From Urechidicola sp. (lineage in GTDB: Bacteria; Pseudomonadota; Gammaproteobacteria; GCA-001735895), in assembly GCA_047638435.1 (NCBI GenBank), contig JBLILW010000002.1:1-34359 (forward strand): 34,359 bases of DNA, in the 5' to 3' direction. Below the pieces are notes generated by a model. The model searched no databases and was not told the origin of the DNA. It saw only the letters and a list, made by a program, of their open reading frames with translations. This document shows, piece after piece, positions 207 through 34,328 of the stretch. Numbering within the stretch: the stretch's first letter is position 1; the number at the start of each line of letters is the position of its first letter. The translations under genes were made by a program, and so were the position numbers.

Positions 207-1772
207 CTACTCACTAATCGAATGAAAATCCCCAGAATGAATTCGGTCAGCATTTCTGACTGACCACAGAGGGATTAACCCTTGCGCAATCATCTTGCCC
301 GCCCCCGAATCAGTTAGTGGTATTTCGGCGCAGGGTTTAACCTGGGTTTGACCTGCTTGCTCAAAATAATGAACGGGTAAATCTTCCGCAGTCATCGCAT
401 TGGCATAATTCATGTCCCACCCACTGGTTAGAAATGTCCTCGCGATTTGTTCTGCTTTGAGGAAAGCGGGGTTTCCCCATAGATAGTCATTATGGTTGGG
501 ATGATCTGGCATTTCTTCGAATGCAAATGCGGTGACAGGTATTGTTTTGTTGCCATATGGCATGCGCAGTAAAAATCGGGGTAACGCGAGGCTGATGGAT
601 TTAGCGACGGATGATTGACGCAGTAATGTCCAGGCTTGCTTGCTCGATTGATAAGCTTCATTTTGCCAATCCCCCACTTTGGGTGTTGTTGCAAAAGATG
701 GGCAGCCGATTAAACTTTCATTGGCTGCAGCTATAAAATGAGCGCCAGCTTTCTGGGCAATTAGGCCGATCTGCGATAGTCGTAACATGTCTTCGATGTC
801 GGCACCAAAACGGTAGTCACCGATAATTAAGTTCCAATTGATATCGTTAGCTGGGCCATCGCAAAACTGTTGATACAACTTTGATTGAGTGACATCATCG
901 GCGGCGAGATCGGCAGCCAATTCATCATTATTAATATCAAATAAGTAGAGCTTAACGGCCTTCCCACCTCGAATTCTCTTGACCACAAAATAGACACTTC
1001 GCCATAACGATTCAAGCGCCTGAAATTTTGGGTGATGCAATATATTGCGCATTTGCTGGGCTATGATAGCGTCGACAGAGGCGACAAGTTCATCTTGGCG
1101 TGAATCACGTGAGAGGGTTTTGCGGGTGCCAATTGTCTGCCGAATAAAGACATCAACCAGTGATTTTGTTTTTGAGTTGGTGGTCGATAGCGTTTCATCT
1201 ACGTTCTGTTCTAATTGTCCTGTGGTTTCATCCATGATTGAATCGATCAAACTAACGCCTGGCTCTATTGGCGATGGGGCTACTGATTTTGGTTGCTTTG
1301 AATCTTTTGGCACTTCGCTTGGTGCCACTTTATCTGTGGCAGCTTTCTCAGGCAAGTCCATTTCGAGCATGGCTTGTTTAAAAGTCGCAGGATTATTTAA
1401 ACGCTTGCGTAAATCTCGAAGGTGACTGAAAACGGGCATATTTTTGTAAAGGCTGCCAGGTTGAAAGTCCTTCAATGACTCCAGTGATAGGTTGATATTG
1501 TTCTCATCGGAGGAGGAGGCTTGGCCAGAATCATCCATTGACAGTGATAAGCGCGGTGCCAAAGATTGCAGTATTTCGTCGAAATTGAAACGGTCGATGG
1601 CTATAAAATTGCGATCGCTGATATTAGAATTGTCGATGCTGTTACTAAAGTCCCCCATCATAGCGATAGAGAAACACGCATCTTGCTGCGTCTGTAAATC
1701 GACATCGCCATCTTCACTCTGAGCGTTTATATTCATTGAAAAACTGAATGGTAGATTTTTAGAATTAGACAT
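207..1772 (-). CDS. TssB(VipA)-like + TssC(VipB)-like fused contractile-sheath-domain protein with a short C-terminus
   Basis: Uninterrupted 521-aa ORF. Residues ~33-125 follow the TssB landmark order: MMGDFSN; FIAIDRFNFDEIL; LSLESLKDFQPGSL; HLRDLRKRL. These compare with my memory of V. cholerae VipA: VVGDFKG; VSVDKNNFEAVM; LNFKSLADFAPDAV; LIELREAL. A Pro/Lys/Ser-rich linker follows. Residues ~175-521 then follow the TssC landmark order: SLIDSIMDET; ILHHPKFQALESLWRSVYFVV; LALPRFLLRMPYG; DYLWGNPAF; EDLPVHYFE; GLIPLWSVRN. The ORF ends where VipB reads ..SIQKP and then continues. Confidence 0.6.
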   Translation of the reverse strand: MSNSKNLPFSFSMNINAQSEDGDVDLQTQQDACFSIAMMGDFSNSIDNSNISDRNFIAIDRFNFDEILQSLAPRLSLSMDDSGQASSSDENNINLSLESLKDFQPGSLYKNMPVFSHLRDLRKRLNNPATFKQAMLEMDLPEKAATDKVAPSEVPKDSKQPKSVAPSPIEPGVSLIDSIMDETTGQLEQNVDETLSTTNSKTKSLVDVFIRQTIGTRKTLSRDSRQDELVASVDAIIAQQMRNILHHPKFQALESLWRSVYFVVKRIRGGKAVKLYLFDINNDELAADLAADDVTQSKLYQQFCDGPANDINWNLIIGDYRFGADIEDMLRLSQIGLIAQKAGAHFIAAANESLIGCPSFATTPKVGDWQNEAYQSSKQAWTLLRQSSVAKSISLALPRFLLRMPYGNKTIPVTAFAFEEMPDHPNHNDYLWGNPAFLKAEQIARTFLTSGWDMNYANAMTAEDLPVHYFEQAGQTQVKPCAEIPLTDSGAGKMIAQGLIPLWSVRNADRIHSGDFHSISE

Positions 1773-1795
1773 TAAGTGCCTCGATGTAAAAAATA

Positions 1796-2437
1796 TTAAA
1801 CAAAAATAATCGTAGATAATAGGGACTGGCCGATATTCCAGACATGACTAAAAATTGGGACGCCCATTAAGTTAAGCAAAACGAGTCCTAATAGTGCATA
1901 GGAACCGTATCGCTCGTTGTAATGGTAATAACGTTGCGCCAACTTTCGAGGTAGAAAATAGGGCAAAATGTAATGTCCATCGAGTGGCCCAATCGGGATT
2001 AAGTTGAATAGCATGAGTAGTAAATTAATGAGCGCTAGATAGGTGAAAAAAAACTGTGCCCCTTGTCCAGCAAATAGTCCCCAGTCGGCTTGAAGGCCAA
2101 TCAGGTAAACATTGATCGTGACGATAGCCAGTATTAGGTTCATCCCGGGTCCCGCTGCGGCGACGAATAAAACGCCCCAGAAAGACTTGTAGTTTGCCGG
2201 GTTGGTAGGCACGGGTTTGGCGTAACCAAATCCAATGAGGACAACCATCAGTAGCCCCATTGGGTCTATATGTGCGATAGGATTTAACGTTAGACGGCCC
2301 GCTTTCTCTGCAGTATTGTCACCGTACAACTTGGCGACAATGCCATGCCCGTATTCATGGAAGGTGAGTGATATAATCAAAGCAGCGATGATTGAAATGA
2401 AAAGCAAATATTGCTGTTCAGCTAAAAGTTGAAGCAT
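1796..2437 (-). CDS. site-2 protease family (peptidase M50) membrane metalloprotease
   Basis: 213-aa polytopic ORF. It has HExxH in the first hydrophobic segment (FHEYGHGIVAKLYGD) and a later NLIPIGPLDGHYIL motif typical of M50. Its stop lies 23 nt upstream of the start of the next same-strand gene. Confidence 0.85.
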   Translation of the reverse strand: MLQLLAEQQYLLFISIIAALIISLTFHEYGHGIVAKLYGDNTAEKAGRLTLNPIAHIDPMGLLMVVLIGFGYAKPVPTNPANYKSFWGVLFVAAAGPGMNLILAIVTINVYLIGLQADWGLFAGQGAQFFFTYLALINLLLMLFNLIPIGPLDGHYILPYFLPRKLAQRYYHYNERYGSYALLGLVLLNLMGVPIFSHVWNIGQSLLSTIIFV

Positions 2438-3342: not shown

Positions 3343-3888
3343 GTGAATTCAGATGAGTCAATGGCTCCTGAGAGCTTTATCAAAAAAACCAAAGATCAAG
3401 CGAAGAAAATCATTACTCTCTTGAGTAGAGATAACACCGATAAAATTGCGGTTGGTCTATATAGGTCAACTGCAATAGAAAGTGAGTCTTTATCTATGCT
3501 GGTTATCGAGATTGATGGGCTTTCCAGATTGAGGGAGTTCGATGGTGATCCTGACGCTTATAAGGTGTTTACTTCAATCGTGAGGTATATTTTCTCCAAA
3601 ATCGATAAAGAGACAGATATTCTGGGATGCTATGGTCGAAATTAATTAAGTGTGTTGATGCCAAAAGTTGGCATGAATGCAGCAAAGAAATTTGCTGTAA
3701 TAATTCGTCAACGAGTTCAATTGGTTAAATATAAAACAGCCAATGGTGAAAAGAGCGCAATTCTAAGCATTGGTATCGCAGCCATTAAAGACGATATAGG
3801 CGATTATAACGCTATGTTAAAACGAGCAGATATGGCGCTATTTGTGGCCAGGAAAAACGGGCGGAATTGTGTCAAAGTTCGATTATAA
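3343..3888 (+). pseudogene. degenerate GGDEF-domain gene interrupted by an in-frame TAA
   Basis: ORFs 3343..3645 and 3652..3888 are in the same frame and are separated only by the TAA at 3643..3645. Joined, they read ..ILGCYGRN*LSVLMPKVG..ILSIGIAAI..MLKRADMALFVARKNGRNCV, which is a GGDEF-domain layout. The signature is G-R-N-stop-L instead of G-G-D/E-E-F. Confidence 0.65.
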
Positions 3889-6398: not shown

Positions 6399-7394
6399 CT
6401 AAATCGCGTGTAATACCTCTTTTACTAACCCTGGGCCACGATAAATGAGACCAGAATAGAGTTGTATTAGTTTTGCCCCGCGATCGAAACGCTCTTTTGC
6501 CTCGGCTGCTGAACTAATGCCGCCAACCGAAATGATGGGGATTTCATCTTGAAGTGCGCGATGAAATTCACTGAGCATATGGCGTGACTTTTGTGTCAGC
6601 GCATCACCACTTAAACCACCGGCTTCTTTGGCTATTGGATGTCCCGATACCTGAATACGATCGATCGTTGTGTTGTTAGCGATGAGACAATCGATGTTAT
6701 GTTTACGAAGCAAGTCTGCAATGCCAGGAATCGCTTTGTCGTCGAGATCGGGCGCTACTTTGAGTGCTATTGGGCGATTAACCTGATGTAAGTCCTCTAA
6801 TTCCATGCGGGTTTGGCTAATGCCATAAAGCAATGAATCGAGGGCTTCTTCACTTTGCAAACCTCGCAATCCAGGCGTGTTGGGTGATGATATATTGACG
6901 GTAATGTAATCGGCCTGTAGATACACTTTTTGCATCGCGAGGCGATAGTCATCGAGAGCGTTGTCGACGGCAGTACTTAGGTTTTTACCGATGTTGATAC
7001 CTAAAACGTAAGGTTTCGGTTGCGCTGGCACCTGCTTAACCAGGTAGTCTACGCCTTTGTTGTTAAAGCCCATGCGGTTGATGATACTGCGATGGCGAGG
7101 CAGTCTGAATAGGCGAGGCCTTGGATTTCCTTCCTGCGGTTTGGGTGTTACCGTCCCGGCTTCTATAAAGCCGAATCCCAGCTTGCTTAAGCCGGACAAG
7201 TAGTCGGCATTTTTGTCTAGTCCAGCTGCCAGTCCGACCGGATTAGGAAAATCGAGTCCCATCACAGTGACTGGTTTTTCGACCCGAGTTTGCGGTATTA
7301 AAGCATGAAATTGATTCAGCATCTCGAGGCTGATTTCATGGGCTAGCTCTGCGTCGACAGAAAATAAAATGGGTTTAAGTAACGAGTAAATCAT
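6399..7394 (-). CDS. pyrD: dihydroorotate dehydrogenase (quinone), class 2
   Basis: 331 aa. Motifs seen: LLKPILFSVDAELAHE, GLAAGLDKNADY, GFIEAGTVTPKPQEGNPRPRLFRL, NRMGFNN, NISSPNTPGLR, GGLSG. This is the classic PyrD pattern. Confidence 0.95.
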   Translation of the reverse strand: MIYSLLKPILFSVDAELAHEISLEMLNQFHALIPQTRVEKPVTVMGLDFPNPVGLAAGLDKNADYLSGLSKLGFGFIEAGTVTPKPQEGNPRPRLFRLPRHRSIINRMGFNNKGVDYLVKQVPAQPKPYVLGINIGKNLSTAVDNALDDYRLAMQKVYLQADYITVNISSPNTPGLRGLQSEEALDSLLYGISQTRMELEDLHQVNRPIALKVAPDLDDKAIPGIADLLRKHNIDCLIANNTTIDRIQVSGHPIAKEAGGLSGDALTQKSRHMLSEFHRALQDEIPIISVGGISSAAEAKERFDRGAKLIQLYSGLIYRGPGLVKEVLHAI

Positions 7395-8716
7395 TAATTT
7401 TGGTGGATCATAGATAATAGCTCAGGATAGTGACCTAGATCGGATAAGGTATCAATATCCCTTACCATTTCAAGCAGTCGAACTTTATAATTGAGCAACT
7501 TGGCGTTGTAGATGGTTTGTTGCAATACACGACTACTGCCCCACTCAACCTGATTGAAAAGTAGAGGATCGATGACCCGGCAGCCGATCAATGCAAAACC
7601 GCCATCGAAGGTGGGTAGAAGCACAATGTCATTGCTATCCAGAGCAGCGAGGGTTTGATCAAAATGAGCTAGCTCTAAATCAAGGCAATCTGAACCAATT
7701 AAAATGACCTTGTGGCTGGTCTGGTCTGATAGCTCACTGTCAAGTGCAAACAGCATCCGATCCCCCAAACCAATGCCTTGCTGTAAAAGATAAGTCTCTT
7801 GTTGAAAAACGTCGTCCTGTGTCTCTTCGCTTAACCAAATTTGATAATTGCAATGAGATGTTCTTAATAAATCAAGCGTGTAGCTCAGGCAGTGTCGAAA
7901 AACACGGGTTGCTTTATCTGTTCCAATATCGGGGATGAGGCGAGTTTTGACTTTACCCTCAACCGGCGGTTTGGCAAAAATCTGAATAACAGGCATTGTC
8001 TTTGCTATCGGTTCCATATTTGATGGCAAGTTAGGGTAATAAATTTCACGCAATCGAACGGGATCGACTCCGAGCCAGTAAGAGAGTCTTAACCGCCACA
8101 TCAGGATGATTGTTTTTGTAATACCATTTTTCTCCCAACGACGACTAGAGGTAACAACAGGATCAAGGGCTATGCTAGGCTTGTGTACCCGTCGAGCCTT
8201 TTTACAGATTGCGATATCTTCCATGATTGGAATGGGAGGAAAGCCTTGCAGCGAGGCGAAGAAAGTTCGTTCAAAAAATAAGGTCTGGTCTCCAGTGCCG
8301 ATTGAACTCCATCGGGAACGCAGGTTGATTGCCTTTTCGATGACGCGGAAAAACCAATGTTGACCGCTGAGTTGCACCGAGAAAAACCCCCATTGACGAT
8401 CATTAGTTAACTGGCTAGTCCAATCTGCTGGCAAAACAGTATCTGCATGCAAAAACAGCAGCCAGTTACCCATCGCGAGTTTGCTTGCTGCATTCATTTG
8501 ATGCGCTCGTCCAGGCGGGCTGGTAGTGACCTGGCAAGGGAATAGATGGGCTATCTGAACCGAGTGATCGGTGCTGCCACCATCGCAAATAATGACCTCA
8601 ACCGAAGTCAGTCCATCAAGACGGGCAAATAGCCGTTGCAGGTTTTGTTTTAAGTGACTGGCTTCATTCAACACTGGTATGATGATGCTAATCGATATTC
8701 GGACATGCTTAACCAT
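7394..8716 (-). CDS. fusion of a GT2-type 'rSAM/selenodomain-associated transferase 2' (N-terminal) and a DUF2064-type 'transferase 1' (C-terminal)
   Basis: The N-terminal half has ISIIIPVLNEASHL, ICDGGSTDHS, LLFLHADTVLP, TGDQTLFFER, IMEDIAICKK and SSRRWEKNG, a GT2 family I recall as TIGR04283. The C-terminal half has VIQIFAKPPVEGKVKTRL, GLGDRM, VILIGSDCLDL, LLPTFDGGFALIG and VEWGSSRV, which fits DUF2064, recalled as TIGR04282. I chose the start at 8716 (MVKHVRISI..) rather than the ORF maximum of 8788, which would run into the upstream gene. Confidence 0.75.
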   Translation of the reverse strand: MVKHVRISISIIIPVLNEASHLKQNLQRLFARLDGLTSVEVIICDGGSTDHSVQIAHLFPCQVTTSPPGRAHQMNAASKLAMGNWLLFLHADTVLPADWTSQLTNDRQWGFFSVQLSGQHWFFRVIEKAINLRSRWSSIGTGDQTLFFERTFFASLQGFPPIPIMEDIAICKKARRVHKPSIALDPVVTSSRRWEKNGITKTIILMWRLRLSYWLGVDPVRLREIYYPNLPSNMEPIAKTMPVIQIFAKPPVEGKVKTRLIPDIGTDKATRVFRHCLSYTLDLLRTSHCNYQIWLSEETQDDVFQQETYLLQQGIGLGDRMLFALDSELSDQTSHKVILIGSDCLDLELAHFDQTLAALDSNDIVLLPTFDGGFALIGCRVIDPLLFNQVEWGSSRVLQQTIYNAKLLNYKVRLLEMVRDIDTLSDLGHYPELLSMIHQN

Positions 8717-8723
8717 TAGCCCA

Positions 8724-9689
8724 TTAACCGAGCGCACCACCACAACTGCTGCCTTGACCCGCTGTGCAGCCATAACAATGGTCAGCAACGCTAACTGGAA
8801 TGCTTAATAGATCATCGATCAAAACATCACGAATATGCAAAGGGTCTTGGTTGTAAGGATTGGTAATATTCATATTCAACATTTGGTTGAAATCGCAGTC
8901 ATAAACAAAGCCCTGCCAATCAACACTGAGTTGATTCTTACACATAAGCCCATCGAGATTTTCGGGACTGTAAGCATCCTTCAAAAGTGTCATATAATTA
9001 TTAAATTCGCCCTTCGAAATTAAGGTGCTGCCAAAGCGTGCGATGGGCATGTTGGTAATGGTAAATAACTGATCGAACTGGATATCGAATTCTGCTTGAA
9101 GAAACTGCTTATAGTCAGCGCGCAATTCTTCCTGTGAGGGGGGTAAAAACGGGCCGGTCGGGTTGTACACTAAAGTAATTGTGAGCGGACTATCTGGCTG
9201 ACTATAACCCAGATCATTTAATATTTGTAATGCGTCGATGCTCTTTTGATAAACACCTTTTCCGCGCTGCCCATCGACATTTTCCTCAATATAACAAGGC
9301 AAAGAGGCAACGATTTGAACTTCGTTGTCTGCCAGGAATTGAGCCATATCTTCATAGCCTGGTTCGAGTAAAATAGTTAGATTGCAGCGGTCGATGACTT
9401 TAATCCCCAGTTCTCGAGCCTTGAGCACCAAGTGTTTGAATAAAGGGTTCATTTCAGGCGCACCACCGGTTAAATCAAGGGTATGAACTGAAGGTTGTTT
9501 GAGTACCCGAAGCAAATCATCAATACTGTCTTCAGTCATTAACTCTTTACGGTTGGGGCCCGCTGCCACGTGGCAATGTAAGCAAGATTGATTGCAGAGA
9601 TAACCCAAATTCACTTGTAACACTTCAATAGTACGACGCGAAACAGAGGGGAAGTCAGTGTTTTTCAATAAAGGCCAGGTATCTTTCAT
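8724..9689 (-). CDS. arsS: radical SAM / Cys-rich domain protein, ArsS-type (arsenosugar biosynthesis radical SAM family)
   Basis: The CxxxCxxC radical-SAM motif is CNQSCLHC (about 9573..9596), embedded in LQVNLGYLCNQSCLHCHVAAGPNRKELM. The Cys-rich tail is DHCYGCTAGQGSSCGGALG. The start at 9689 (MKDTWPLLKNTDFPSV) fits the family N-terminus as I recall it, but the ORF could extend to 9833. Confidence 0.8.
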   Translation of the reverse strand: MKDTWPLLKNTDFPSVSRRTIEVLQVNLGYLCNQSCLHCHVAAGPNRKELMTEDSIDDLLRVLKQPSVHTLDLTGGAPEMNPLFKHLVLKARELGIKVIDRCNLTILLEPGYEDMAQFLADNEVQIVASLPCYIEENVDGQRGKGVYQKSIDALQILNDLGYSQPDSPLTITLVYNPTGPFLPPSQEELRADYKQFLQAEFDIQFDQLFTITNMPIARFGSTLISKGEFNNYMTLLKDAYSPENLDGLMCKNQLSVDWQGFVYDCDFNQMLNMNITNPYNQDPLHIRDVLIDDLLSIPVSVADHCYGCTAGQGSSCGGALG

Positions 9690-10085
9690 ATGCTTTGTCG
9701 GGTTGAGGCTTGGAAACGATAGACCGATAATATCACACTGAGTTCCAGTCGTGCTTTGAGATGCGTAATATTGCAGGTCTAAGCACGCCAGTATGACCTT
9801 AATATCGCTAACAGTGAAAATGCGGCCTAACACTGAGGGAAAATCTAATCGACATCTCTCAAAAATTCAAAGCGACTTAATTCGGTTAGCTCGGTTAATG
9901 TGACTATAGTTTTATTTTAGAAGCAGAGTTGTTCCGATAAGCGGAATGTTTTGAGGAATGAATACAAGACTCAGCTCTCATTTTAAATAACAAATGGTAT
10001 TTTCTTGGTTTATTATTAATAAACTAGAATATGCTTAAACCTACTTTTAGAGACATAACGAAACGTTTGGGAATCAAACGACATA

Positions 10086-11896
10086 ATGAGTGTTGAATTC
10101 GAAATCGCCAGCGATCAAATTGATGGTGCTAGAGACTATCAAGAAGACCCTATATGGTTAATCAGCTTTGGGACGCTGATAACGTTAAAACATGCGTGTT
10201 GGCTATTATGGTCGATGGTATGTGTGGGCACGCTGCCGTAACCTAGCCAGTAATTGAGCGGTCTCAATATTTAACAAATCCTTCCAGTCCCGCTTTCCTA
10301 GCAAAGAAGTCAGCGCACACTCACAGATGCTTTAAATCGGTCAAATGAACAAATACGGGCCTCTGTCATGGCAATACCGGTTTTGAAAGGTATGGACTGT
10401 ACGATGATGGCCGCGTACCTGGAAGGTGATGATTTATTTTGGGTTAGTGTCGGCGATAGCCATCTCTATTTGATTCGTGAGTGTGGGTTGGTCAAGCCAA
10501 ATGCAGATCATAGCTAAGGTGACTATCTGGATATGATGAAAGGGCAGGGCATGAAGGTCGATGAGCAGGTGGGTATGTCCAGAAATATGCTGATGAGCGC
10601 GATGACTGGTGATGAAATTAGTCGCATCTATGTCTCTGATGCGCCGATTAAGGTTCGCCAATCGATCGCCTTATTGTCGCCAGTGACGGTCTCGATACCC
10701 GGGCGCAGGTGCAATCATACAATATTCGTCTTGGTCGGCAAGGGCAAGAGAATGTGTCTATGCCTTGCTTAAGGCGGTTGAAGATGCAAACAAGATAAAT
10801 CAGGACAACACCACTTTAATCGTTATCGATATAAAGGAACAAGTGGTGCATGAAACTCTAGTAATAAGTGAACAAAAATCAGTTGAGCCAGCTCTAGTGG
10901 TTGATATAAAAGTTAAAGCAGAATATAAAGAACCCCGCTCCTATAAAGGCTTGGTTTGGTTAGTCATCATCATATTGCAAGCGCCAGTTGGTTACTTTGC
11001 AAGGCAAAAGTTCTGGTGACGCAGATGACGGATAAAACGGGTGAAATCATTCAAGCGCAGATATCGACTGACCCAGTTAAAGTTGCTGAGTTAGTCGTTA
11101 CAGAAAACGACTCAGATTCGTTCAGTGATGGGCTAGACGATGAGCCCCCAGCAGTTGAGCTAATCGTGACGCTAGAGCCGCCTCCTAAAGTTGTCGATAA
11201 AGCAGACCTGTCTACTAATAAGCTAACATCAGGCGGCAGTAGAACTTTAATGATCCAGATGCCCAGTGGCAGCTTCCGCATGGGTAGTTCTACGGGTATT
11301 CTTTCAGTGGATGAATCTCCTATACATGAAGTCAAAATCAGCTTGGTTATGGTCTTGGTGGATGAAATTACTTTTGCTGAATACGATCGTTTCGCAAAAG
11401 TAACCGGACGTCAGTTAGCCACTACGCACTGGGATCGTAAAACTTACCCAGCGGATAATGTGTCGTGGGACGATGCTATCGCCTATTTGGGCTGGCTAAG
11501 CAAGAAAACTGGAAAGTACTATCGATTATTGTCAGAAGCCGAGTGGGAGTATGACGCCCATGCCGGTACAAAATCCTCTTATTGGTGGGGTCTTACGCCT
11601 AGTGTCGACAATGCAAACTGTTTTGATTGCATGAGTGACATTAGCTCTAACAATCCTGCAAAAGTAGGGATCTACCAACCGAATCGTTTTGGACTGTATG
11701 ACACAGCTGGTAATATGTTCGAATGGGTTCACGATTGTTATCACCGCTGTTATAAAGATGCGTCAACCGATGGCTCGGTATGGGAAGGGGCGCCTATCCT
11801 AGTCCAGCTAGCTCAATGCGCGTAGAAAATCGCGATAAGTTCCCAAGTGGCCGAGGTCAGTATAATGTTGGCATTCGGATTGCTCGTGACTTGTAA
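10086..11896 (+). pseudogene. decayed PP2C phosphatase - TM - FGE-sulfatase (SUMF1-like) domain gene
   Basis: PP2C landmarks are scattered over all three + frames: IDGARDYQED (frame of the ATG at 10086, stop at 10239..10241); MVDGMCGHAAV; GNLASN*AVSIF; MDCTMMAAYLEGDDLFWVSVGDSHLYLIRE..NADHS followed by an in-frame TAA at 10515..10517; DRLIVASDGLDT; KINQDNTTLIVIDI. A hydrophobic segment follows, then an FGE-sulfatase domain (GSFRMGS, ESPIHEV, DNVSWDDAIAYLGWLS, YRLLSEAEWEY, NRFGLYDTAGNMFEWV). The expected end of that domain (..NVGIRIARDL*, stop at 11894..11896) lies in a different frame from 10956..11825. Confidence 0.7.
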
Positions 11897-24037: not shown

Positions 24038-24821
24038 ATGCCGTCAGAACAGTACCGTAAAGGACAGATATTCAAGCAGCTACACCAAACAGATGGGCTA
24101 TTTGTCATGCCTAATGCTTGGAATGCAGGAAGTGCACGACTGCTCGCCGCTGAAGGCTTCAAGGCAATCGGTACCACCAGCGCCGGCATCGCATACGAAT
24201 TAGGCGTTCCTGATTATAAAGGCCTGCTGAGTAGAAGCGCAGCACTGGAAGAAGCTCAGCGTATCGCGGCCAGAATCAATATACCAGTCAGTGTCGATGC
24301 AGAAAATGGCTATGGAGATGAGCCAGAAACGGTGTCACAAAAAATTCGACTTGTTGCTCAAGCTGGTGCTGTCGGCGCTAATATCGAAGACTATGCAATC
24401 ACTAACCAATATAAGCTGTATGACTTCGAGTTAGCGGTTGAACGCATCAAAGCGACCAGCGAGGCAGCCGACTCGCTCGATATTCCATTCACATTGACCG
24501 GCCCGAGCCGAATGCTACCTAATCGGTCATCCAGATCCATTTGCCGAATCGGTTAAGCGAGCCAATGCCTATCAGGAAGCAGGTGCTGATTGCATGTTTG
24601 TGCCAGGAGTCAAGGATGTCCAGACCATCGCCGCACTGGTGAAAGAAATCAATAGCCCGATCAATGTTGTTATGGGGTTAGTGGGCGAACCGATATCGGT
24701 CAAACAACTGGCTGATCTGGGCGTCAGGCGAGTCAGTTTCCGTGGCTGCCTGGCGTGCGCAACTTTCGGACTGATTCGAAAAGCCGCACAGGAAATTAAA
24801 CAACAAGGCAGTTTCGAATAG
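24038..24821 (+). pseudogene. isocitrate lyase / PEP mutase family gene (2-methylisocitrate-lyase/carboxyPEP-mutase-like) with a +1 frameshift
   Basis: Frame 1 reads ..FVMPNAWNAGSARLLAAEGFKAIGTTSAG..VSVDAENGYG..GANIEDY..DIPFTLTG, then nonsense up to the stop at 24554..24556. The family sequence continues in the +1 frame from 24504: RAECYLIGHPDPFAESVKRANAYQEAGADCMFVPGVKD..PINVVMG... Deleting one C from the CCC run at 24502..24504 restores a single ORF of about 260 aa. Confidence 0.75.
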
Positions 24822-26495: not shown

Positions 26496-27476
26496 TTGTC
26501 ACAGCAGGCAATATTGAAATTAAAACAATCGATTAGCGAAAAGATAATCGGTCAAACTGAGCTGATTGATAGGCTTTTGATTGCCATTCTAGCGGATGGT
26601 CATTTATTGGTCGAAGGAGCGCCGGGCTTAGCCAAGACACGCGCCATTAAAGTTCTTGGCGATTGCATCGAAGGTGACTTTCATCGCATTCAGTTTACCC
26701 CTGATTTACTACCCGCCGACTTGACGGGTACAGAAATATATCGCCCCCAGGACGGCAGCTTTAAATTTCAAAAAGGGCCACTATTCCATAATCTGGTTCT
26801 GGCTGATGAAATTAATCGCGCTCCAGCTAAAGTACAGTCTGCACTGCTCGAAGCGATGGCAGAGCGGCAAATAACCGTTGGCTCTGAAACCTATTTGTTG
26901 CCCGAAGTATTTCTGGTGATGGCGACTCAAAACCCAATCGAGCAGGAAGGAACCTACCCACTCCCCGAGGCACAGCTGGATCGTTTTTTAATGCATGTCA
27001 CTGTTGATTTTCCAAATGCAGATGAAGAGAAGCAGATTCTGAAATTAACCCGTGACGAAGCGAAAACCAATCGCGAGCTTGGTCAGTCAGTGAAGTCTGG
27101 ATCAAAGCCGTTATCAATAAGCCAGAAAGAGTTGCTCGAAGCCCGCCAAGAAGTGCTCAATATTTATCTGGATGAAAGTCTCGAAAGTTATTTAATAGAG
27201 CTAGTGCTAGCGACCCGTAGCGCCGAAAGATATGGGGATGATTTAGCCGGATGGATTGAGTATGGCGCTAGCCCGCGTGCGACAATGGCGCTTGATAGGT
27301 GCGCCCGAGCCTACGCCTGGCTCAATGGTCGTGACTTTGTATCGCCGGAAGATATTCAAACCATTGCTCCCGATGTATTGCGCCACCGCATCATTCTCAG
27401 TTTTGAAGCCGAGGCAGAAGGTATAACACCAGATCGCTTTATTGCCGAATTAATAGGTCGTGTTGCGGTTCCATAG
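26496..27476 (+). CDS. MoxR-family AAA+ ATPase
   Basis: 326 aa. GHLLVEGAPGLAKT is Walker A and LADEINRAPAKVQSALLEAM contains Walker B. ATQNPIEQEGTYPLPEAQLDRF and ASPRA are also present. The start is TTG, 5 nt after AGAGAGG. Confidence 0.9.
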   Translation: MSQQAILKLKQSISEKIIGQTELIDRLLIAILADGHLLVEGAPGLAKTRAIKVLGDCIEGDFHRIQFTPDLLPADLTGTEIYRPQDGSFKFQKGPLFHNLVLADEINRAPAKVQSALLEAMAERQITVGSETYLLPEVFLVMATQNPIEQEGTYPLPEAQLDRFLMHVTVDFPNADEEKQILKLTRDEAKTNRELGQSVKSGSKPLSISQKELLEARQEVLNIYLDESLESYLIELVLATRSAERYGDDLAGWIEYGASPRATMALDRCARAYAWLNGRDFVSPEDIQTIAPDVLRHRIILSFEAEAEGITPDRFIAELIGRVAVP

Positions 27477-27513
27477 TGCCGCATAGGATTTCATAGTCTG
27501 TGATGAAAAAATA

Positions 27514-28476
27514 ATGACGCAAGTATCAGAAGCTGGTGATGATGTTGTACGAATCAAGCAATCGACCCTAATCGGTCTGAGCCGCGACGCCAAAAATATT
27601 CCCCTCGATTTAAACTCAGTTAAAGCAAAGATGTCTGGTGGATACCTGTCTTCATTTCGTGGACGTGGCATGGAATTTCACGAATCCAGGCCTTACCAGC
27701 CGGGCGACGATATTAGAGCGATCGACTGGCGAGTGACTGCAAGAAGTGGGGTTACCCATACTAAGGTCTATCATGAGGAACGCGAGCGACCCGTTTTACT
27801 TTGGGTCGACCTTAGTCCCACCATGTTTTTTGGAACGCGCCAATGTTTCAAATCAGTCTTAGCTGCCAAGCTTGCCGCATTGCTGGCCTGGAGCAGCGTG
27901 CAGCATGGCGACCGACTCGGTGGGCTGGTGTTTTCAGACCAACATCACGACGAGTTTCGTCCAAAACAGGGTAATGGCTCAGTCTTACATTTTATTAAAA
28001 AGCTGGCTTCTCACCCGGCCTGGGGTCAGCAAAGGAAAACAACAGCAACAAATCAAATCAATCATGATGCCGGTATTCAGGCGTTGAATCGATTACGTCA
28101 GGTAGCGAAGCCAGGTAGTCTTATTGTATTGATCAGTGATTTTCGTTTTTTAACTGATAGCTGCCGAACCCATCTAGCACACCTTGCCAGACATAATGAC
28201 GTCGTCATGCTATTCACCCACGATCCACTGGAACAAGCATTGCCACCCTCGGGCTATTATCAATTGACAGACGGTGAATCGAGACTGGCTGTTGATAGCG
28301 CTAACACCGCCAGCAGGGAGCAATACCAGCAGCGCTTTACTTCCCATCATCAAATGCTAGAGCAGCTTTGCAAGCAATTACATTTACTACTGATCGACGT
28401 CTCAACCACATCAAATTTGCTCGATGTTTTGAAGCGTGGTCTCGGGCTTCGGCCAAAGCGACAGTCTCCTAAATGA
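27514..28476 (+). CDS. DUF58 domain protein (MoxR-associated, VWA-like)
   Basis: SRPYQPGDDIRAIDWRVTARSG..HTKVYHEERERPVLLWVDLSPTMFFG is the DUF58 signature. Confidence 0.85.
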   Translation: MTQVSEAGDDVVRIKQSTLIGLSRDAKNIPLDLNSVKAKMSGGYLSSFRGRGMEFHESRPYQPGDDIRAIDWRVTARSGVTHTKVYHEERERPVLLWVDLSPTMFFGTRQCFKSVLAAKLAALLAWSSVQHGDRLGGLVFSDQHHDEFRPKQGNGSVLHFIKKLASHPAWGQQRKTTATNQINHDAGIQALNRLRQVAKPGSLIVLISDFRFLTDSCRTHLAHLARHNDVVMLFTHDPLEQALPPSGYYQLTDGESRLAVDSANTASREQYQQRFTSHHQMLEQLCKQLHLLLIDVSTTSNLLDVLKRGLGLRPKRQSPK

Positions 28477-28973
28477 ATGATCTCCCCTTAAAAGATATTC
28501 ACTTGCCAGATGGCATCTTATGGTGGCCGCCTGCGCCGGGTTGGTGGGTGCTGGCCGTTGTGCTTATTGTGTTGCTATTATTAATGCCAAAGTTGTGGCG
28601 ATGGTTGCTCTATAAACCAGTCGGGTCATTGTCGCTAAAGGCGCTTTATTTGATTCGACAAAAGCATCAACATCAAGCAGACAGTAAGCAAACATTGCAA
28701 GCGATCACAACCTTGTTACGACGCACAGTCATGAGCCAAAGTGGGCGTATCGGTCATGCAGGATTGGTCGGCGACGACTGGCTAAAACAATTGAACCAAA
28801 TGTCTAATAGAGACTGCTTCACGCAGGCGCAAGGCGAGCTGTTAAAGCACGGTCGATATCAGCCAATTACTGAAGACCAAATTGTAAGCGAGATTGATAG
28901 TTTGCTACAGAGTTGTGAAAACTGGATAAAGTCGTTACACAAAGATTCGGGAGGAAACCATGCTGCACCTTGA
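28473..28973 (+). CDS. DUF4381-type single-pass membrane protein
   Basis: LKDIHLPDGILWWPPAPGWWVLAVVLIVLLLL at the N-terminus. The start overlaps the DUF58 stop (ATGA). Confidence 0.6.
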   Translation: MNDLPLKDIHLPDGILWWPPAPGWWVLAVVLIVLLLLMPKLWRWLLYKPVGSLSLKALYLIRQKHQHQADSKQTLQAITTLLRRTVMSQSGRIGHAGLVGDDWLKQLNQMSNRDCFTQAQGELLKHGRYQPITEDQIVSEIDSLLQSCENWIKSLHKDSGGNHAAP

Positions 28974-29934
28974 TTGGCCCTGGGTTCTTCTATTATTACC
29001 GCTACCACTAGTCGTCTACTTTGCCATGCAAGCGAAGCCTATAGCGCAAGATGCTGCATTGCAGGTACCATTTTTGGATGATTTCAAATTGACCCAACAA
29101 GCGGGTCATCAGCAAAAAAAAACGCATTGGCTAAGATATCTCAGCTTGCTGGGTTGGTGCCTGATGGTTCTAGCTGCTAGCCGCCCACAATGGCTAGGCG
29201 AACCGATTAGCATCAACATCAGTGGCCGTGATTTGATGATGGCGGTCGATTTATCTAATAGTATGAGCATTGAAGATTTTAAAATTTATGATGGGGCTGT
29301 CGATCGGCTCACGGCGACCAAACTTGTCATGGAAGAATTCATCGATAGTCGAAAAGGCGACAGACTAGGGTTGATATTGTTTGGCACCCAGGCCTATCTA
29401 CAAACACCGATGACCTTTGATACCAAAACTGTCAATCGACTATTGCGAGAGTCGGCGATTGGACTGGCCGGAACAGATACCGCGATTGGCGATGCTATTG
29501 GCTTAGCGCTCAAGAGTTTTTCCAATAGCAAGCAAGAGTCGAAGGTATTAATTTTGATTACCGATGGCGCTAATACGGCGGGAGAAGTGTCGCCAATGAA
29601 AGCCGCCCAGCTAGCTGCAGAGAGAGGTTTGAAAATATATACCATCGGTATTGGGGCCGATGAAATGACGCGCAATACTTGGTTCGGCGCGCAGATAGTA
29701 AACCCATCCAATCAGCTCGACGAGAAAACTTTACGCGGCATAGCCGATGTTACTGGTGGGCGATATTTCAGGGCGCATGATACAGAAGAAATGGTCGAAA
29801 TTTATGATTTGTTAGACGAACTAGAACCGGTTAAGCAAGATGAAGAGAAATTTCGCCCCAATAGTGCCTTGTTTTATTGGCCGCTCGGACTGGCATTGTG
29901 CCTGGGCTTTGCCATTTGCGTGCGGCGCGCATGA
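28960..29934 (+). CDS. batA: VWA-domain membrane protein, BatA-type
   Basis: An N-terminal TM segment is followed by a VWA domain with the MIDAS motif (VDLSNSMS, ILITDGANTAG) and a C-terminal TM segment. It overlaps the previous gene by 14 nt. Confidence 0.85.
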   Translation: MLHLDWPWVLLLLPLPLVVYFAMQAKPIAQDAALQVPFLDDFKLTQQAGHQQKKTHWLRYLSLLGWCLMVLAASRPQWLGEPISINISGRDLMMAVDLSNSMSIEDFKIYDGAVDRLTATKLVMEEFIDSRKGDRLGLILFGTQAYLQTPMTFDTKTVNRLLRESAIGLAGTDTAIGDAIGLALKSFSNSKQESKVLILITDGANTAGEVSPMKAAQLAAERGLKIYTIGIGADEMTRNTWFGAQIVNPSNQLDEKTLRGIADVTGGRYFRAHDTEEMVEIYDLLDELEPVKQDEEKFRPNSALFYWPLGLALCLGFAICVRRA

Positions 29935-31754: not shown

Positions 31755-31795
31755 GCATACTTATTAATAAACATATCAAGAAAAAAACCAATAAC

Positions 31796-33578: not shown

Positions 33579-33953
33579 CTAAGTAGTCGATTCGCCAGCC
33601 ACATACTTCCCCGCGGGTATATCAAGCCGCGCGGCGATAGCTGATGATGCAATAACGGTGACTGTATCGTTCTCGGTATCAACGATATTGAGTCCGCCCT
33701 TGACCGCGTTAACAGTAACGGTACCGAAAGGGATTTGTTTGCGTATGACTGTCTTATCGATTTCATCGGGTTTTTGTACGCCAATGGTGACCTCAACTTG
33801 CATCGAATCTCGGTCAATGCCAAGTGTTCGAAACAACGTTATTGAACTATGGTGCAGCGCATCTTGCACGGCACGAACAGCCGCTTTGGTATAGTCTTCA
33901 CCATATAAGTCATTGCCAGTACCCATTTCTAAAATAATTCTTTGCATTGTCAT
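33579..33953 (-). CDS. Lin0512-family small protein (second of a tandem pair)
   Basis: 124 aa. The N-terminus ILEMGTGNDLYGEDYTKAAVRAVQDALHHSS fits the GxGxDxxG motif I recall for the Lin0512 family (TIGR02058). It is clearly a paralog of the adjacent ORF. Confidence 0.55.
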   Translation of the reverse strand: MTMQRIILEMGTGNDLYGEDYTKAAVRAVQDALHHSSITLFRTLGIDRDSMQVEVTIGVQKPDEIDKTVIRKQIPFGTVTVNAVKGGLNIVDTENDTVTVIASSAIAARLDIPAGKYVAGESTT

Positions 33954-33956
33954 GGC

Positions 33957-34328
33957 TTAATGCTCTGCCTGAGCTGTTTCAAAAATCTCATCAATATCAA
34001 GATAAACCACTGCCGCCGCATTGGCGACAACAGTAACTTTAGTGCCGCAGTCACTAATGATATCCAACCCCCCTTCGACCACATCAACAGTCGCCTGACC
34101 ATAAGGAAGAACCGCTTTAACTTCATCCCTATTTACTAACTCAGGTTTAGCGACCCCTATAGATACCTCGATTTTCATCGCTTCTTTAGGCACGCCAAAT
34201 GCTGGTGCGACAGTAAGAGAGTTGTGCCACAAAGCATCGCGCAAGGCGCGTACCGCTGCTTTGGTATAGTTACCGCCCTGCAAATCAGTTCCCATTCCCA
34301 TCTCTACTACCATTCTTTTATATGTCAT
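33957..34328 (-). CDS. Lin0512-family small protein (first of a tandem pair)
   Basis: 123 aa. VVEMGMGTDLQGGNYTKAAVRALRDALWHNS, IEVSIGVAKPE and VDVVEGGLDI. A 3-nt spacer separates it from the downstream paralog. Confidence 0.55.
   Translation of the reverse strand: MTYKRMVVEMGMGTDLQGGNYTKAAVRALRDALWHNSLTVAPAFGVPKEAMKIEVSIGVAKPELVNRDEVKAVLPYGQATVDVVEGGLDIISDCGTKVTVVANAAAVVYLDIDEIFETAQAEH

What the first reader, a model, noticed from the sequence alone, without database searches (positions are those of the whole stretch)
207..1772. One polypeptide combining TssB-like and TssC-like sheath segments, short at the C-terminus and outside any T6SS cluster
Seen in sequence: a single intact 521-aa ORF. 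Its first ~135 aa reproduce the TssB/VipA landmarks in canonical order (MMGDFSN; FIAIDRFNFDEIL; LSLESLKDFQPGSL; HLRDLRKRL). A ~40-aa Pro/Lys/Ser-rich linker follows (PEKAATDKVAPSEVPKDSKQPKSVAPSPIEPG). After that come the TssC/VipB landmarks in canonical order (SLIDSIMDET; ILHHPKFQALESLWRSVYFVV; LPRFLLRMPYG; YLWGNPAF; EDLPVHYFE; GLIPLWSVRN). The ORF stops at ..GDFHSISE. From my memory of V. cholerae VipB, that protein reads ..ANSIQKP at this point and continues for 100+ residues that help build the inter-subunit handshake. Established knowledge: characterised T6SS sheaths use two separate proteins, encoded next to hcp, tssE and the baseplate genes. None of those genes is present in the 34 kb to the right. 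Inference: a covalently fused, C-terminally short sheath module kept as an open frame in a housekeeping context may be a repurposed sheath-fold protein, or part of an undescribed assembly, rather than a normal T6SS part.
Basis: partly seen in the sequence, partly recalled or inferred. Interest (0 to 1): 0.78.

Follow-up and report, generated by a model that had tools for sequence, protein, structure and literature searches.

The report
Fused, shortened T6SS sheath paralog
This gene encodes one protein that joins the small and large type VI secretion sheath subunits but lacks the part that builds the tube; it belongs to a large, unstudied family that usually sits beside normal secretion-system genes and keeps the docking motif for the sheath-recycling ATPase ClpV.

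Summary
Window 207-1772, on the minus strand, is an intact 521-aa ORF. It has a TssB/VipA domain (aa 26-127), a disordered linker of about 80 aa, and the TssC/VipB N-terminal domain (aa 227-510). The TssC C-terminal handshake domain is absent. No T6SS gene lies within the 34 kb window or 10 kb to its left.

The protein is not a one-off. It belongs to a monophyletic family spanning several phyla: at least 150 clusters at 50% identity, all about 490-530 aa and all short at the same point. In 36 of 78 related loci the fused gene lies inside or beside a complete T6SS cluster that also has separate full-length tssB and tssC. It is therefore an extra paralog, not the sheath itself.

The linker is variable except for one conserved island, S-L-[LI]-D-S-I-[LM]. 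This matches the LLDEIM motif by which VipB docks to ClpV. The motif class matches that of the neighbouring TssC in 13 of 13 loci.

The window gene belongs to a derived marine gammaproteobacterial clade. There the gene stands alone under purifying selection (dN/dS about 0.14).

Best reading: a non-polymerising sheath-protomer mimic that acts with ClpV and the sheath, encoded away from the T6SS. No curated model or paper for it was found.

The parts
207..1772 (-). Complete ORF of 521 aa plus stop codon: fused TssB-like and TssC(N-domain)-like protein
   Evidence: ORF list. Pfam PF05591 plus PF05943. TIGR03358 and TIGR03355 partial matches. PDB sequence hits to VipA/VipB, TssB/TssC and IglB. AF2 model with pLDDT 82. 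Foldseek top hits are TssC/VipB chains. dN/dS 0.14 against the P0007 ortholog.
1683..1772 (-). aa 1-30: disordered N-terminal arm with the conserved pattern P-F-x-F-x-x-N-x-N-T. It is positionally equivalent to the TssB N-terminal arm, which is the handshake donor strand and the TagJ-binding region in canonical TssB.
   Evidence: pLDDT below 50 for aa 1-30. In the marine clade P8 is 88%, F9 94%, N16 88% and T17 83% conserved. phmmer aligns query aa 14-125 to VipA residues 13-124. The role of the TssB arm comes from PMC5807055 and PMC4239648. The equivalence is an inference.
1392..1697 (-). aa 26-127: TssB/VipA-like domain
   Evidence: PF05591 E 5.5e-19, model positions 20-122 of 155. TIGR03358 positions 24-125 of 160. 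PDB TssB/VipA chains.
1107..1355 (-). aa 140-222: low-complexity, Pro/Lys/Ser/Glu-rich disordered linker joining the TssB-like and TssC-like parts
   Evidence: pLDDT mostly below 50. Column identity is mostly 20-45% outside the motif.
1224..1253 (-). aa 174-183, S-L-I-D-S-I-M-D-E-T: a conserved short motif inside the variable linker. It matches the ClpV N-domain docking motif of TssC (VipB 19-LLDEIM-24, HsiC2 ILDSII).
   Evidence: In the marine clade L176 is 96%, D177 100%, S178 92%, I179 98%, E182 92% and T183 92% conserved, against 20-45% in the flanks. Canonical TssC N-termini in related loci carry the same motif. The motif class is concordant with the cognate TssC in 13 of 13 loci. A variant of the motif occurs across the family. 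Motif identity and function come from PMC4239648.
243..1094 (-). aa 227-510: TssC/VipB N-terminal domain, which forms sheath domain 2 (middle layer) and part of domain 3 (outer layer)
   Evidence: PF05943 E 2.3e-59, model positions 1-291 of 301. phmmer to 9n4v_A, 5mxn_A, 5urw_1B, 3j9g_B and 5n8n_B at E 1e-36 to 1e-41. Foldseek gives about 300 aligned columns and TM about 0.6 on the target. Domain definitions come from PMC5807055.
207..242 (-). aa 511-521 (I-H-S-G-D-F-H-S-I-S-E) plus stop: the family-specific short C-terminal tail that replaces the roughly 130-aa TssC C-terminal handshake domain
   Evidence: H512, F516 and S518 are conserved in the family. No PF18945 match. No TssC C-terminal similarity anywhere in the window.
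1779..1782 (-). GAGG ribosome-binding site 6 nt upstream of the ATG. The upstream peptidase M50 gene (1796-2437, minus strand) ends only 23 nt before the start, so the two are probably co-transcribed.
   Evidence: Sequence read directly. ORF list. Co-transcription is inferred from the spacing only.

Best explanation
The gene encodes a member of a large, ancient and so far uncharacterised family of T6SS sheath paralogs. In this family TssB and the N-terminal two thirds of TssC are joined in one chain, and the TssC C-terminal domain has been lost. That domain forms sheath domain 1, the inner layer and handshake.

Shown here:
- The protein folds like sheath domains 2 and 3 of a TssB/TssC protomer.
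- It lacks domain 1.
- Its linker carries a conserved copy of the TssC N-terminal LLDEIM-type motif.
- The family is monophyletic.
- In about half of the related loci the gene sits in a T6SS cluster that also has ordinary tssB and tssC.
- The window gene belongs to a derived marine gammaproteobacterial clade. There the gene stands alone, has different neighbours in different genera, and is under purifying selection.

Inferred:
- Without domain 1 the protein cannot build a tube by itself.
- It behaves as a soluble mimic of the outer surface of a sheath protomer and displays the ClpV-docking helix on a flexible tether at all times.
- It therefore most likely acts as an accessory factor of sheath turnover. 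It could be a ClpV adaptor, regulator or decoy. It could also be a non-extendable subunit that binds sheath or baseplate surfaces.
- In this organism it would work in trans with a T6SS and ClpV encoded elsewhere in the genome.
For: Domain content and the missing C-terminal domain. Confident fold matching TssC and TssB chains.

Family size and uniform architecture:
- All of the top 120 hits in two searches carry PF05591 plus PF05943 without PF18945 and are about 485-555 aa.
- At least 150 clusters at 50% identity align over about aa 30-520 of the query.

The family is monophyletic against 17 canonical TssC sequences, and T6SS-linked members occur across the whole tree.

T6SS linkage:
- 36 of 78 loci, and 22 of 46 loci with full flanks, are T6SS-linked.
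- Canonical TssB plus full-length TssC lie next to the fused gene in loci such as L006, L015, L018, L019, L028, L031, L033, L034, L052, L056 and L088.
- Pfam-annotated example: L006 carries VipA, VipB+VipB_2, HCP, ImpE, ImpA_N/VasJ, GPW_gp25 and TssF directly downstream.

The ClpV-type motif is a conserved island in a variable linker. The same motif is found in canonical TssC N-termini. The class is concordant with the cognate TssC in 13 of 13 loci: 11 LLD-type and 2 EFASLL/ERLLG-type. The motif is present across the family, orphans included.

Published basis:
- ClpV binds the VipB N-terminal helix through LLDEIM, and the motif co-evolves with ClpV (PMC4239648).
- The TssC C-terminus is required for tubule formation, while the N-terminus is enough for TssB binding (PMC3597794).
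- Domain 1 carries the handshake (PMC5807055).
- An extra, non-redundant TssC paralog already exists in Agrobacterium, ImpD/TssC40 (PMC3702570).

Purifying selection: dN 0.16, dS 1.12.
Against: No T6SS or clpV gene was seen in the 44 kb around the gene. I could not inspect the rest of the genome, so the partner in trans is assumed.

The whole marine clade, and 24 of 46 fully flanked loci, are unlinked to T6SS genes.

Binding to ClpV is inferred from a motif, not tested. In P. aeruginosa H1-type systems the equivalent TssC helix is not needed for ClpV binding (PMC4239648).

The motif sits inside the chain rather than at a free N-terminus.

The 13 of 13 concordance is inflated by shared ancestry; there is effectively one switch between motif classes.

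The tree is neighbour-joining without support values.
Confidence: 0.55

Rival explanations
1. T6SS-independent repurposing in the marine clade. The fused protein was exported from a T6SS cluster and now works without any T6SS. It could use its docking motif on another AAA+ N-domain or another partner, or it could build a different assembly.
For: Every marine-clade locus examined is a single-gene locus with unrelated neighbours and no T6SS gene within 6-10 kb. The identity range is 43-100%. The clade is monophyletic and under purifying selection, so the gene is useful in that setting.
Against: The ClpV-type motif is most strongly conserved in this very clade. The clade's nearest branches in the neighbour-joining tree include T6SS-linked genes from marine gammaproteobacteria: L062 from Oleiphilaceae, taken from one of the samples that also hold the window's contig, and L086 from Paraglaciecola. 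T6SS genes such as vgrG, hcp and effectors are commonly scattered around genomes, so lack of linkage is weak evidence. This last point rests on established knowledge.
Confidence: 0.2
2. A structural sheath subunit. The fused protein is built into the canonical TssB/TssC sheath as a specialised ring, a chain terminator or a baseplate- or cap-proximal subunit. It would use its TssB-like N-terminal arm as a donor strand.
For: The N-terminal arm is conserved and positionally equivalent to the TssB donor strand. The gene often lies directly upstream of tssB-tssC or next to tssK, vgrG or clpV. Domains 2 and 3 are intact.
Against: It lacks domain 1, so it has no acceptor sheet and no C-terminal donor strand. 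It cannot pass on the handshake mesh (PMC5807055). A TssC fragment limited to the N-terminal 212 residues gave no tubules with its TssB partner (PMC3597794). The in-ring TssB-strand acceptor sites are all filled in a complete ring (inference from PMC5807055).
Confidence: 0.15
3. A decaying remnant: a truncated pseudogene left over from a lost T6SS cluster.
For: The protein is short at the C-terminus and lies outside any T6SS cluster.
Against: Hundreds of clusters from several phyla share the same end point and the conserved tail motif. dN/dS is 0.14. The protein is identical in four metagenome samples, with 0-1 silent differences. It has a good RBS and a confident fold. T6SS-linked members coexist with intact tssB and tssC.
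Confidence: 0.02

Closest known systems
TssB/VipA plus TssC/VipB contractile sheath heterodimer of the T6SS (V. cholerae VipA/VipB, P. aeruginosa HsiB1/HsiC1, M. xanthus TssB/TssC)
   Same: Clear homology of both halves. Same fold for sheath domains 2 and 3. Same N-terminal TssC motif class, LLDEIM-type. Frequent location in T6SS clusters.
   Different: One polypeptide instead of two. A disordered linker of about 80 aa. No C-terminal VipB_2 domain (sheath domain 1), and so no handshake acceptor or C-terminal donor strand. Scores below both TIGRFAM equivalog cut-offs. Forms a separate clade from canonical TssC. Occurs in addition to canonical TssB and TssC rather than replacing them.
ImpD/TssC40 (Atu4340) of Agrobacterium tumefaciens, a second TssC paralog inside the T6SS operon
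   Same: An extra sheath-related paralog encoded beside the real TssB and TssC. It is not functionally redundant with TssC41 (PMC3702570). An ImpD-like second TssC was also seen in L084.
   Different: ImpD is not fused to TssB. It is a different lineage: in L084 the second TssC-like ORF matches only profile positions 208-436 at 131 bits. It has not been reported as an orphan.
TagJ/HsiE1, a T6SS accessory protein that bridges the TssB N-terminus and ClpV
   Same: The proposed role is similar: an accessory factor acting at the sheath-ClpV interface. TagJ co-evolves with the TssC motif class and the ClpV class (PMC4239648). TagJ genes are present in many of the linked clusters.
   Different: The fold is unrelated (ImpE/TPR-like). 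TagJ binds the sheath rather than mimicking it. The functional analogy is an inference, not a tested result.
Truncated gp18 or HsiC1(1-212) laboratory constructs
   Same: Sheath proteins without the C-terminal region stay soluble and still bind their partner, but they do not polymerise (PMC3597794).
   Different: Those are artificial truncations. This is a natural, conserved and selected form.

Membership tests
TssB/VipA (PF05591; TIGR03358 equivalog) | Pfam T6SS_VipA domain above the gathering score | tested here: met
   68.9 bits against a cut-off of 24, aa 26-127
TssB/VipA (PF05591; TIGR03358 equivalog) | Scores above the TIGR03358 equivalog cut-off, meaning the same function as the sheath small subunit | tested here: not met
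   62.8 bits against a cut-off of 97.25
TssB/VipA (PF05591; TIGR03358 equivalog) | Separate protein of about 160-180 aa encoded directly upstream of tssC | tested here: not met
   Fused in a 521-aa chain. No tssC gene nearby.
TssC/VipB (PF05943 + PF18945; TIGR03355 equivalog) | VipB N-terminal domain | tested here: met
   201.4 bits, model positions 1-291 of 301
TssC/VipB (PF05943 + PF18945; TIGR03355 equivalog) | gp18-like C-terminal domain (VipB_2, sheath domain 1) with the handshake strands | tested here: not met
   No PF18945 match at E<=1. TIGR03355 is matched only to position 342 of 473. VipB residues 340-473 are unmatched. tblastn finds no remnant.
TssC/VipB (PF05943 + PF18945; TIGR03355 equivalog) | Scores above the TIGR03355 equivalog cut-off | tested here: not met
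   207.1 bits against a cut-off of 271.5
TssC/VipB (PF05943 + PF18945; TIGR03355 equivalog) | N-terminal ClpV-docking helix motif (LLDEIM / ILDSII class) | tested here: met
   L175-I-D-S-I-M180 is conserved. Only the sequence was tested, not binding.
TssC/VipB (PF05943 + PF18945; TIGR03355 equivalog) | Polymerises with TssB into contractile tubules around Hcp | not testable with these tools
   Needs purification and EM, or multimer modelling. Predicted negative because domain 1 is absent (PMC3597794, PMC5807055).
Fused TssB-TssC(deltaC) paralog family (uncurated; defined here) | Single chain of about 490-530 aa with PF05591 then PF05943, no PF18945, a variable linker with an LLD/ERLLG-type motif, and a short conserved tail (D-x-[IV]-[HR]-S..F-x-S-I) | tested here: met
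Fused TssB-TssC(deltaC) paralog family (uncurated; defined here) | Falls inside the monophyletic fused clade, separate from canonical TssC | tested here: met
   Neighbour-joining tree on 353 columns; the 17 canonical TssC sequences form the outgroup clade. No bootstrap values.
T6SS accessory (Tag) gene | Encoded within or next to a T6SS core gene cluster | tested here: not met
   No T6SS gene within the 34 kb window plus 10 kb to the left. The feature is met in 36 of 78 relatives.
T6SS accessory (Tag) gene | The host genome carries a T6SS, and the protein affects its function | not testable with these tools
   The rest of the MAG (GCA_047623325.1) could not be read. No genetics are available.
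Anti-phage defence system component | Match to a PADLOC model | tested here: not met
   0 families at E<=0.01

The most novel reading that the evidence does not exclude
In a whole clade of marine Gammaproteobacteria, a sheath-derived protein has left the T6SS. It keeps only the T6SS-specific outer domains and an AAA+-docking helix on a flexible tether. It would work as a stand-alone cytoplasmic factor, for example as an adaptor or substrate for a Clp/Hsp100-type ATPase or as the building block of an undescribed assembly, in genomes that have no T6SS at all.
Probability: 0.18. Interest if true: 0.75.

Novelty: new variant of a known kind. Interest (0 to 1): 0.55.

Why it matters
Annotation pipelines call this protein 'TssC/ImpC, contractile sheath large subunit'. 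That name is misleading, because the protein lacks the one domain shared by all contractile sheaths, so it should not be able to form a sheath. Surveys that count T6SSs from TssC hits will therefore over-count, especially in marine metagenomes.

Biologically, the family is a widespread and unstudied candidate T6SS accessory component. It occurs in Acidobacteriota, Gemmatimonadota, Planctomycetota and several classes of Pseudomonadota. It gives a clear, testable handle on how sheath assembly and ClpV-driven recycling are controlled: a natural soluble protomer mimic that displays the ClpV-docking helix at all times.

If the orphan clade proves to act without a T6SS, it would be a rare case of a contractile-injection-system part taken over for another cellular job.

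Tried and rejected
- Split gene or frameshift. I looked for the TssC C-terminal domain after the stop codon and elsewhere. The 206 nt downstream are AT-rich and non-coding. tblastn with 17 C-terminal domains gave only chance hits. No VipB_2-only gene is annotated in L001.
- T6SS cluster just outside the window. Rejected: the 10 kb to the left carry Lactamase_B, DUF302, ArsR, cytochrome c, sulfite-oxidase-type, sulfur-transport and thioredoxin genes.
- Conserved operon partner in the orphan clade. Rejected: neighbours differ between genera. The peptidase M50 adjacency is kept only in close relatives, such as P0007 at 72% identity. All-against-all clustering of neighbour ORFs found only T6SS genes, Ser/Thr kinases and lineage-specific synteny such as gidA/parA.
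- Defence-system component. No PADLOC hit.
- Known named family. Literature searches for fused TssB/TssC, TssBC fusion, TssC-like, and COG3516/COG3517 fusion found no description. A 2026 review of T6SS accessory factors does not mention it.
- Cluster-member look-up for organism names gave nothing useful.
- Whether the host genome has a T6SS elsewhere. I could not test this.
- dS against more distant orthologs is saturated, so only the P0007 comparison is usable.
Full report
**1. The observation**

Window 207..1772 holds an intact 521-aa ORF on the minus strand. It has a GAGG ribosome-binding site 6 nt before the ATG. It starts 23 nt after the stop codon of a co-oriented peptidase M50 gene.

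Pfam finds T6SS_VipA at aa 26-127 (E 5.5e-19). It finds the VipB N-terminal domain at aa 227-510 (E 2.3e-59, model positions 1-291 of 301). It finds no VipB_2 C-terminal domain, even at E<=1. NCBIfam aligns the protein to TIGR03358 (small subunit) and to TIGR03355 (large subunit). For TIGR03355 the alignment covers only model positions 6-342 of 473. Both scores are below the equivalog cut-offs.

Against solved structures, the C-terminal half aligns to TssC/VipB chains at E 1e-36 to 1e-41. The alignment stops at residue 339 of the 473 residues of V. cholerae VipB (5mxn_A). The N-terminal part aligns to TssB/VipA chains.

An AlphaFold2 model built on 115 homologs is confident (pLDDT 82, pTM 0.80). 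The exceptions are aa 1-30 and roughly aa 147-217. Its best PDB fold matches are VipB/TssC chains (E about 1e-18, about 300 aligned columns), with weaker matches to VipA/TssB chains.

Nothing resembling the missing C-terminal domain lies after the stop codon or elsewhere in the window.

**2. Surroundings**

Pfam-annotated gene calls on contigs that carry the same protein show no T6SS gene on either side.

- Upstream of the gene, to the right in window coordinates: peptidase M50, a split GGDEF gene, TPMT, DUF2797, DHO_dh, a glycosyltransferase/DUF2064, a radical-SAM/DUF3641 gene, FGE-sulfatase, PntAB, and a MoxR/DUF58/VWA/BatD operon.
- Downstream, to the left of position 1: Lactamase_B, DUF302, ArsR, cytochrome c, a molybdopterin oxidoreductase, and sulfur-transport and thioredoxin genes.

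A complete T6SS locus next to the gene is excluded for 10 kb to the left and 34 kb to the right.

**3. It is a family, not an accident**

- A search of 5.8 billion proteins returned 1179 hits. All of the best 120 have the same architecture (PF05591 plus PF05943, no PF18945), and nearly all are 485-537 aa.
- A second search, started from a T6SS-linked member, gave the same picture. Named sources included MAGs of Methylococcaceae, Sedimenticola, Competibacteraceae, Rhodospirillales, Phycisphaerales and Planctomycetales.
- An exhaustive phmmer search against 1.84 billion 50%-identity representatives listed 150 representatives, which is the table limit. Most are about 490-530 aa and align in one stretch over about aa 30-520. 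The score at rank 150 is still 245 bits. PDB TssC chains score about 140 bits in the separate PDB search.
- Alignments show many invariant positions and a shared short tail, D509-x-[IV]-[HR]-S...F516-x-S518-I.
- The window gene is identical at the protein level in four metagenome samples, with 0-1 silent nucleotide differences. Against its 72%-identical ortholog it gives dN 0.16 and dS 1.12, a ratio of about 0.14.

This is a selected gene, not a remnant.

**4. Genomic context of relatives**

A scan of one genome per GTDB species returned 80 loci. I called ORFs, detected fused and canonical sheath genes with a profile built from the family, clustered all neighbour ORFs, and mapped T6SS core families.

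Of 78 non-redundant loci with a fused gene, 36 have T6SS core genes in the flanks. Of the 46 loci with at least 8 kb on both sides, 22 do. This is far above what a roughly 25-kb cluster in a genome of several megabases would give by chance.

In these loci the fused gene coexists with separate tssB and full-length tssC. Typical gene orders are:

- fused-tssB-tssC-hcp-tagJ-tssA-tssE-tssF-tssG-clpV (Acidobacteriota; L006 is confirmed by Pfam)
- vgrG-fused-clpV-tssG-tssF-tssE-tagJ-hcp-tssC (Beta- and Gammaproteobacteria, L021, L048, L049, L060)

The fused protein is therefore an additional paralog, not the sheath.

In a neighbour-joining tree on 353 shared columns, the 17 canonical TssC sequences form one clade and all fused proteins form another. 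T6SS-linked members are spread over the whole fused clade.

The window protein sits in a clade of marine Gammaproteobacteria. The nearest named sources are Paraglaciecola at 55% and an Alteromonadaceae bacterium at 51%. Every locus examined in that clade is unlinked to T6SS genes and has different neighbours.

The nearest branches to that clade include L062 (Oleiphilaceae) and L086 (Paraglaciecola psychrophila MAG). In L062 the fused gene lies next to a Ser/Thr kinase, clpV, tssG, tssF and tssE. L062 comes from one of the samples that also hold the window's contig. L086 lies next to clpV. The orphan state therefore looks derived.

**5. What the anatomy says about mechanism**

Published sheath structures divide the TssB/TssC protomer into three domains (PMC5807055).

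- Domain 1, the inner layer, is made of TssC beta11-12. It accepts the C-terminal strand of a neighbouring TssC and the N-terminal strand of a neighbouring TssB. This is the handshake.
- Domain 2, the middle layer, is made of TssB beta2-3 plus TssC beta1-4 and beta8.
- Domain 3, the outer layer, is made of helices from the TssB C-terminus and the TssC N-terminus.

The C-terminal region of HsiC1 (aa 332-489) is the gp18-like part. A construct limited to the N-terminal 212 residues of HsiC1 still binds HsiB1 but forms no tubules (PMC3597794).

The fused family keeps domains 2 and 3 and lacks domain 1. It can neither accept handshake strands nor donate a C-terminal one. The inference is that it cannot build or extend a tube by itself.

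**6. The linker motif**

The linker of about 80 aa is poorly conserved (20-45% column identity) except for one island at aa 174-183, S-L-[LI]-D-S-I-[LM]-[DE]-E-T. In the marine clade L176 is 96%, D177 100%, I179 98%, E182 92% and T183 92% conserved.

This is the position and sequence of the TssC N-terminal motif that docks into the hydrophobic groove of the ClpV N-domain. Examples are VipB 19-LLDEIM-24, HsiC2 ILDSII and HsiC3 LLDEII (PMC4239648). TIGR03355 model position 6 aligns here. Canonical TssC proteins in the related loci carry S-[LI]-L-D-Q-I-[VI].

That paper shows that the motif class co-evolves with ClpV. A second class (HsiC1, EFASLL) goes with TagJ and a charged ClpV groove.

In the 13 loci where both proteins could be read, the fused protein's motif class equals that of the neighbouring canonical TssC. 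Eleven are LLD-type. Two are EFASLL-type TssC paired with [IV]-E-R-L-L-G in the fused protein. Seven further fused proteins from similar clusters also carry [FI]ERLLG or FASLLG. Shared ancestry inflates this count, but the direction is clear.

A variant of the amphipathic motif is present across the family, including in unlinked acidobacterial members.

The N-terminal arm (P8, F9, F11, N16, T17) is also conserved. It is disordered in the monomer model, as expected for the TssB arm that serves as handshake donor and TagJ-binding site (PMC4239648, PMC5807055).

**7. Best explanation**

The protein is a non-polymerising, single-chain mimic of the outer two layers of a sheath protomer. It displays the ClpV-docking helix on a flexible tether. 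It most likely works as a T6SS accessory factor at the sheath-ClpV interface, as an adaptor, regulator, decoy or substrate. It might also act as a non-extendable subunit on sheath or baseplate surfaces.

In this organism it would act in trans on a T6SS encoded elsewhere.

- Shown: architecture, fold, missing domain, family size, T6SS linkage, motif conservation and concordance, and purifying selection.
- Inferred: inability to polymerise, ClpV binding, and the presence of a T6SS elsewhere in this genome.

I put this at about 0.55.

Rivals:

- A T6SS-independent role in the marine clade, about 0.2.
- True incorporation into the sheath as a specialised subunit, about 0.15.
- A decaying remnant, about 0.02. 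This is effectively refuted.

**8. Comparison with what is known**

The closest known entities are the following.

- The canonical TssB/TssC pair. The protein is homologous to it but fails the membership tests for a sheath subunit. It has no C-terminal domain, scores below both equivalog cut-offs, and falls in a separate clade.
- The ImpD/TssC40 paralog of Agrobacterium. This is a precedent for an extra, non-redundant TssC-like protein (PMC3702570).
- TagJ/HsiE1. This is a functional analogy only.

I found no dedicated Pfam or NCBIfam model and no PADLOC match. I found no paper describing a natural TssB-TssC fusion or a C-terminally short form. Databases label members 'ImpC' or 'contractile sheath large subunit', which overstates what the protein can be.

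**9. Verdict**

The finding is a new variant of a known kind. It is a widespread, uncharacterised, fused and domain-1-less sheath paralog, seen here in its orphan marine form.

Interest is moderate to good (0.55). It offers a concrete, testable candidate regulator of sheath turnover and a correction to annotation. The key unknowns are whether a T6SS exists in the same genome and whether ClpV binds the protein. Neither could be resolved with the tools at hand.

Noticed in passing
window 3343-3645 and 3652-3888 (+): A GGDEF-type gene appears as two adjacent short ORFs of 100 aa and 78 aa. Only the second piece hits PF00990. It may be a truncated or frameshifted diguanylate cyclase gene.
   Followed up: no
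window 11025-11825 (+), with two small ORFs just upstream (about 10533-11019): A 266-aa FGE-sulfatase-family protein (PF03781) lies about 9 kb from the fused sheath gene. A preprint (10.1101/2021.05.21.445229) reports FGE-like proteins as T6SS immunity proteins. This could be an orphan immunity gene or simply a coincidence.
   Followed up: no
L006, L015, L016, L019, L033, L040, L052, L054, L062, L063, L069, L071, L078 and others: Large Ser/Thr protein kinases lie near the fused gene in 16 loci. The representative I read has a C-terminal segment that looks FGE-sulfatase-like, though I ran no domain search on it. The loci include three (L054, L063, L078) where no T6SS core gene was seen. This may reflect a PpkA-type regulatory link.
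   Followed up: partly
window 24038-24556 and 24594-24821 (+): A PEP_mutase-family gene is split into two consecutive ORFs of 172 aa and 75 aa. This suggests a frameshift or a pseudogene.
   Followed up: no
window 6399-9833 (-): A co-oriented trio: radical-SAM/DUF3641, glycosyltransferase-2/DUF2064 and a DHO_dh-family gene. Next to it lie TPMT and DUF2797 genes. The arrangement is conserved in the P0007 relative.
   Followed up: no
window 26496-33547 (+): A MoxR AAA, DUF58, DUF4381, VWA, VWA/TPR and BatD operon, resembling a Bat/aerotolerance operon.
   Followed up: no
window 33579-34328 (-): Two tandem paralogous genes of the Lin0512 family (PF09585), 124 aa and 123 aa.
   Followed up: no
L084 3693-5237: A Cellvibrionaceae T6SS cluster has a second, divergent TssC-like gene of 514 aa directly after the canonical tssC. 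It matches only profile positions 208-436. This resembles the ImpD/TssC40 situation in Agrobacterium.
   Followed up: no
L047 1659-4091 and L055 1518-3623: Two fused-family ORFs appear much longer, at 810 aa and 701 aa, with N-terminal extensions. These may be real extra domains. They may also be an artefact of my rule of taking the first start codon after a stop in high-GC DNA.
   Followed up: no
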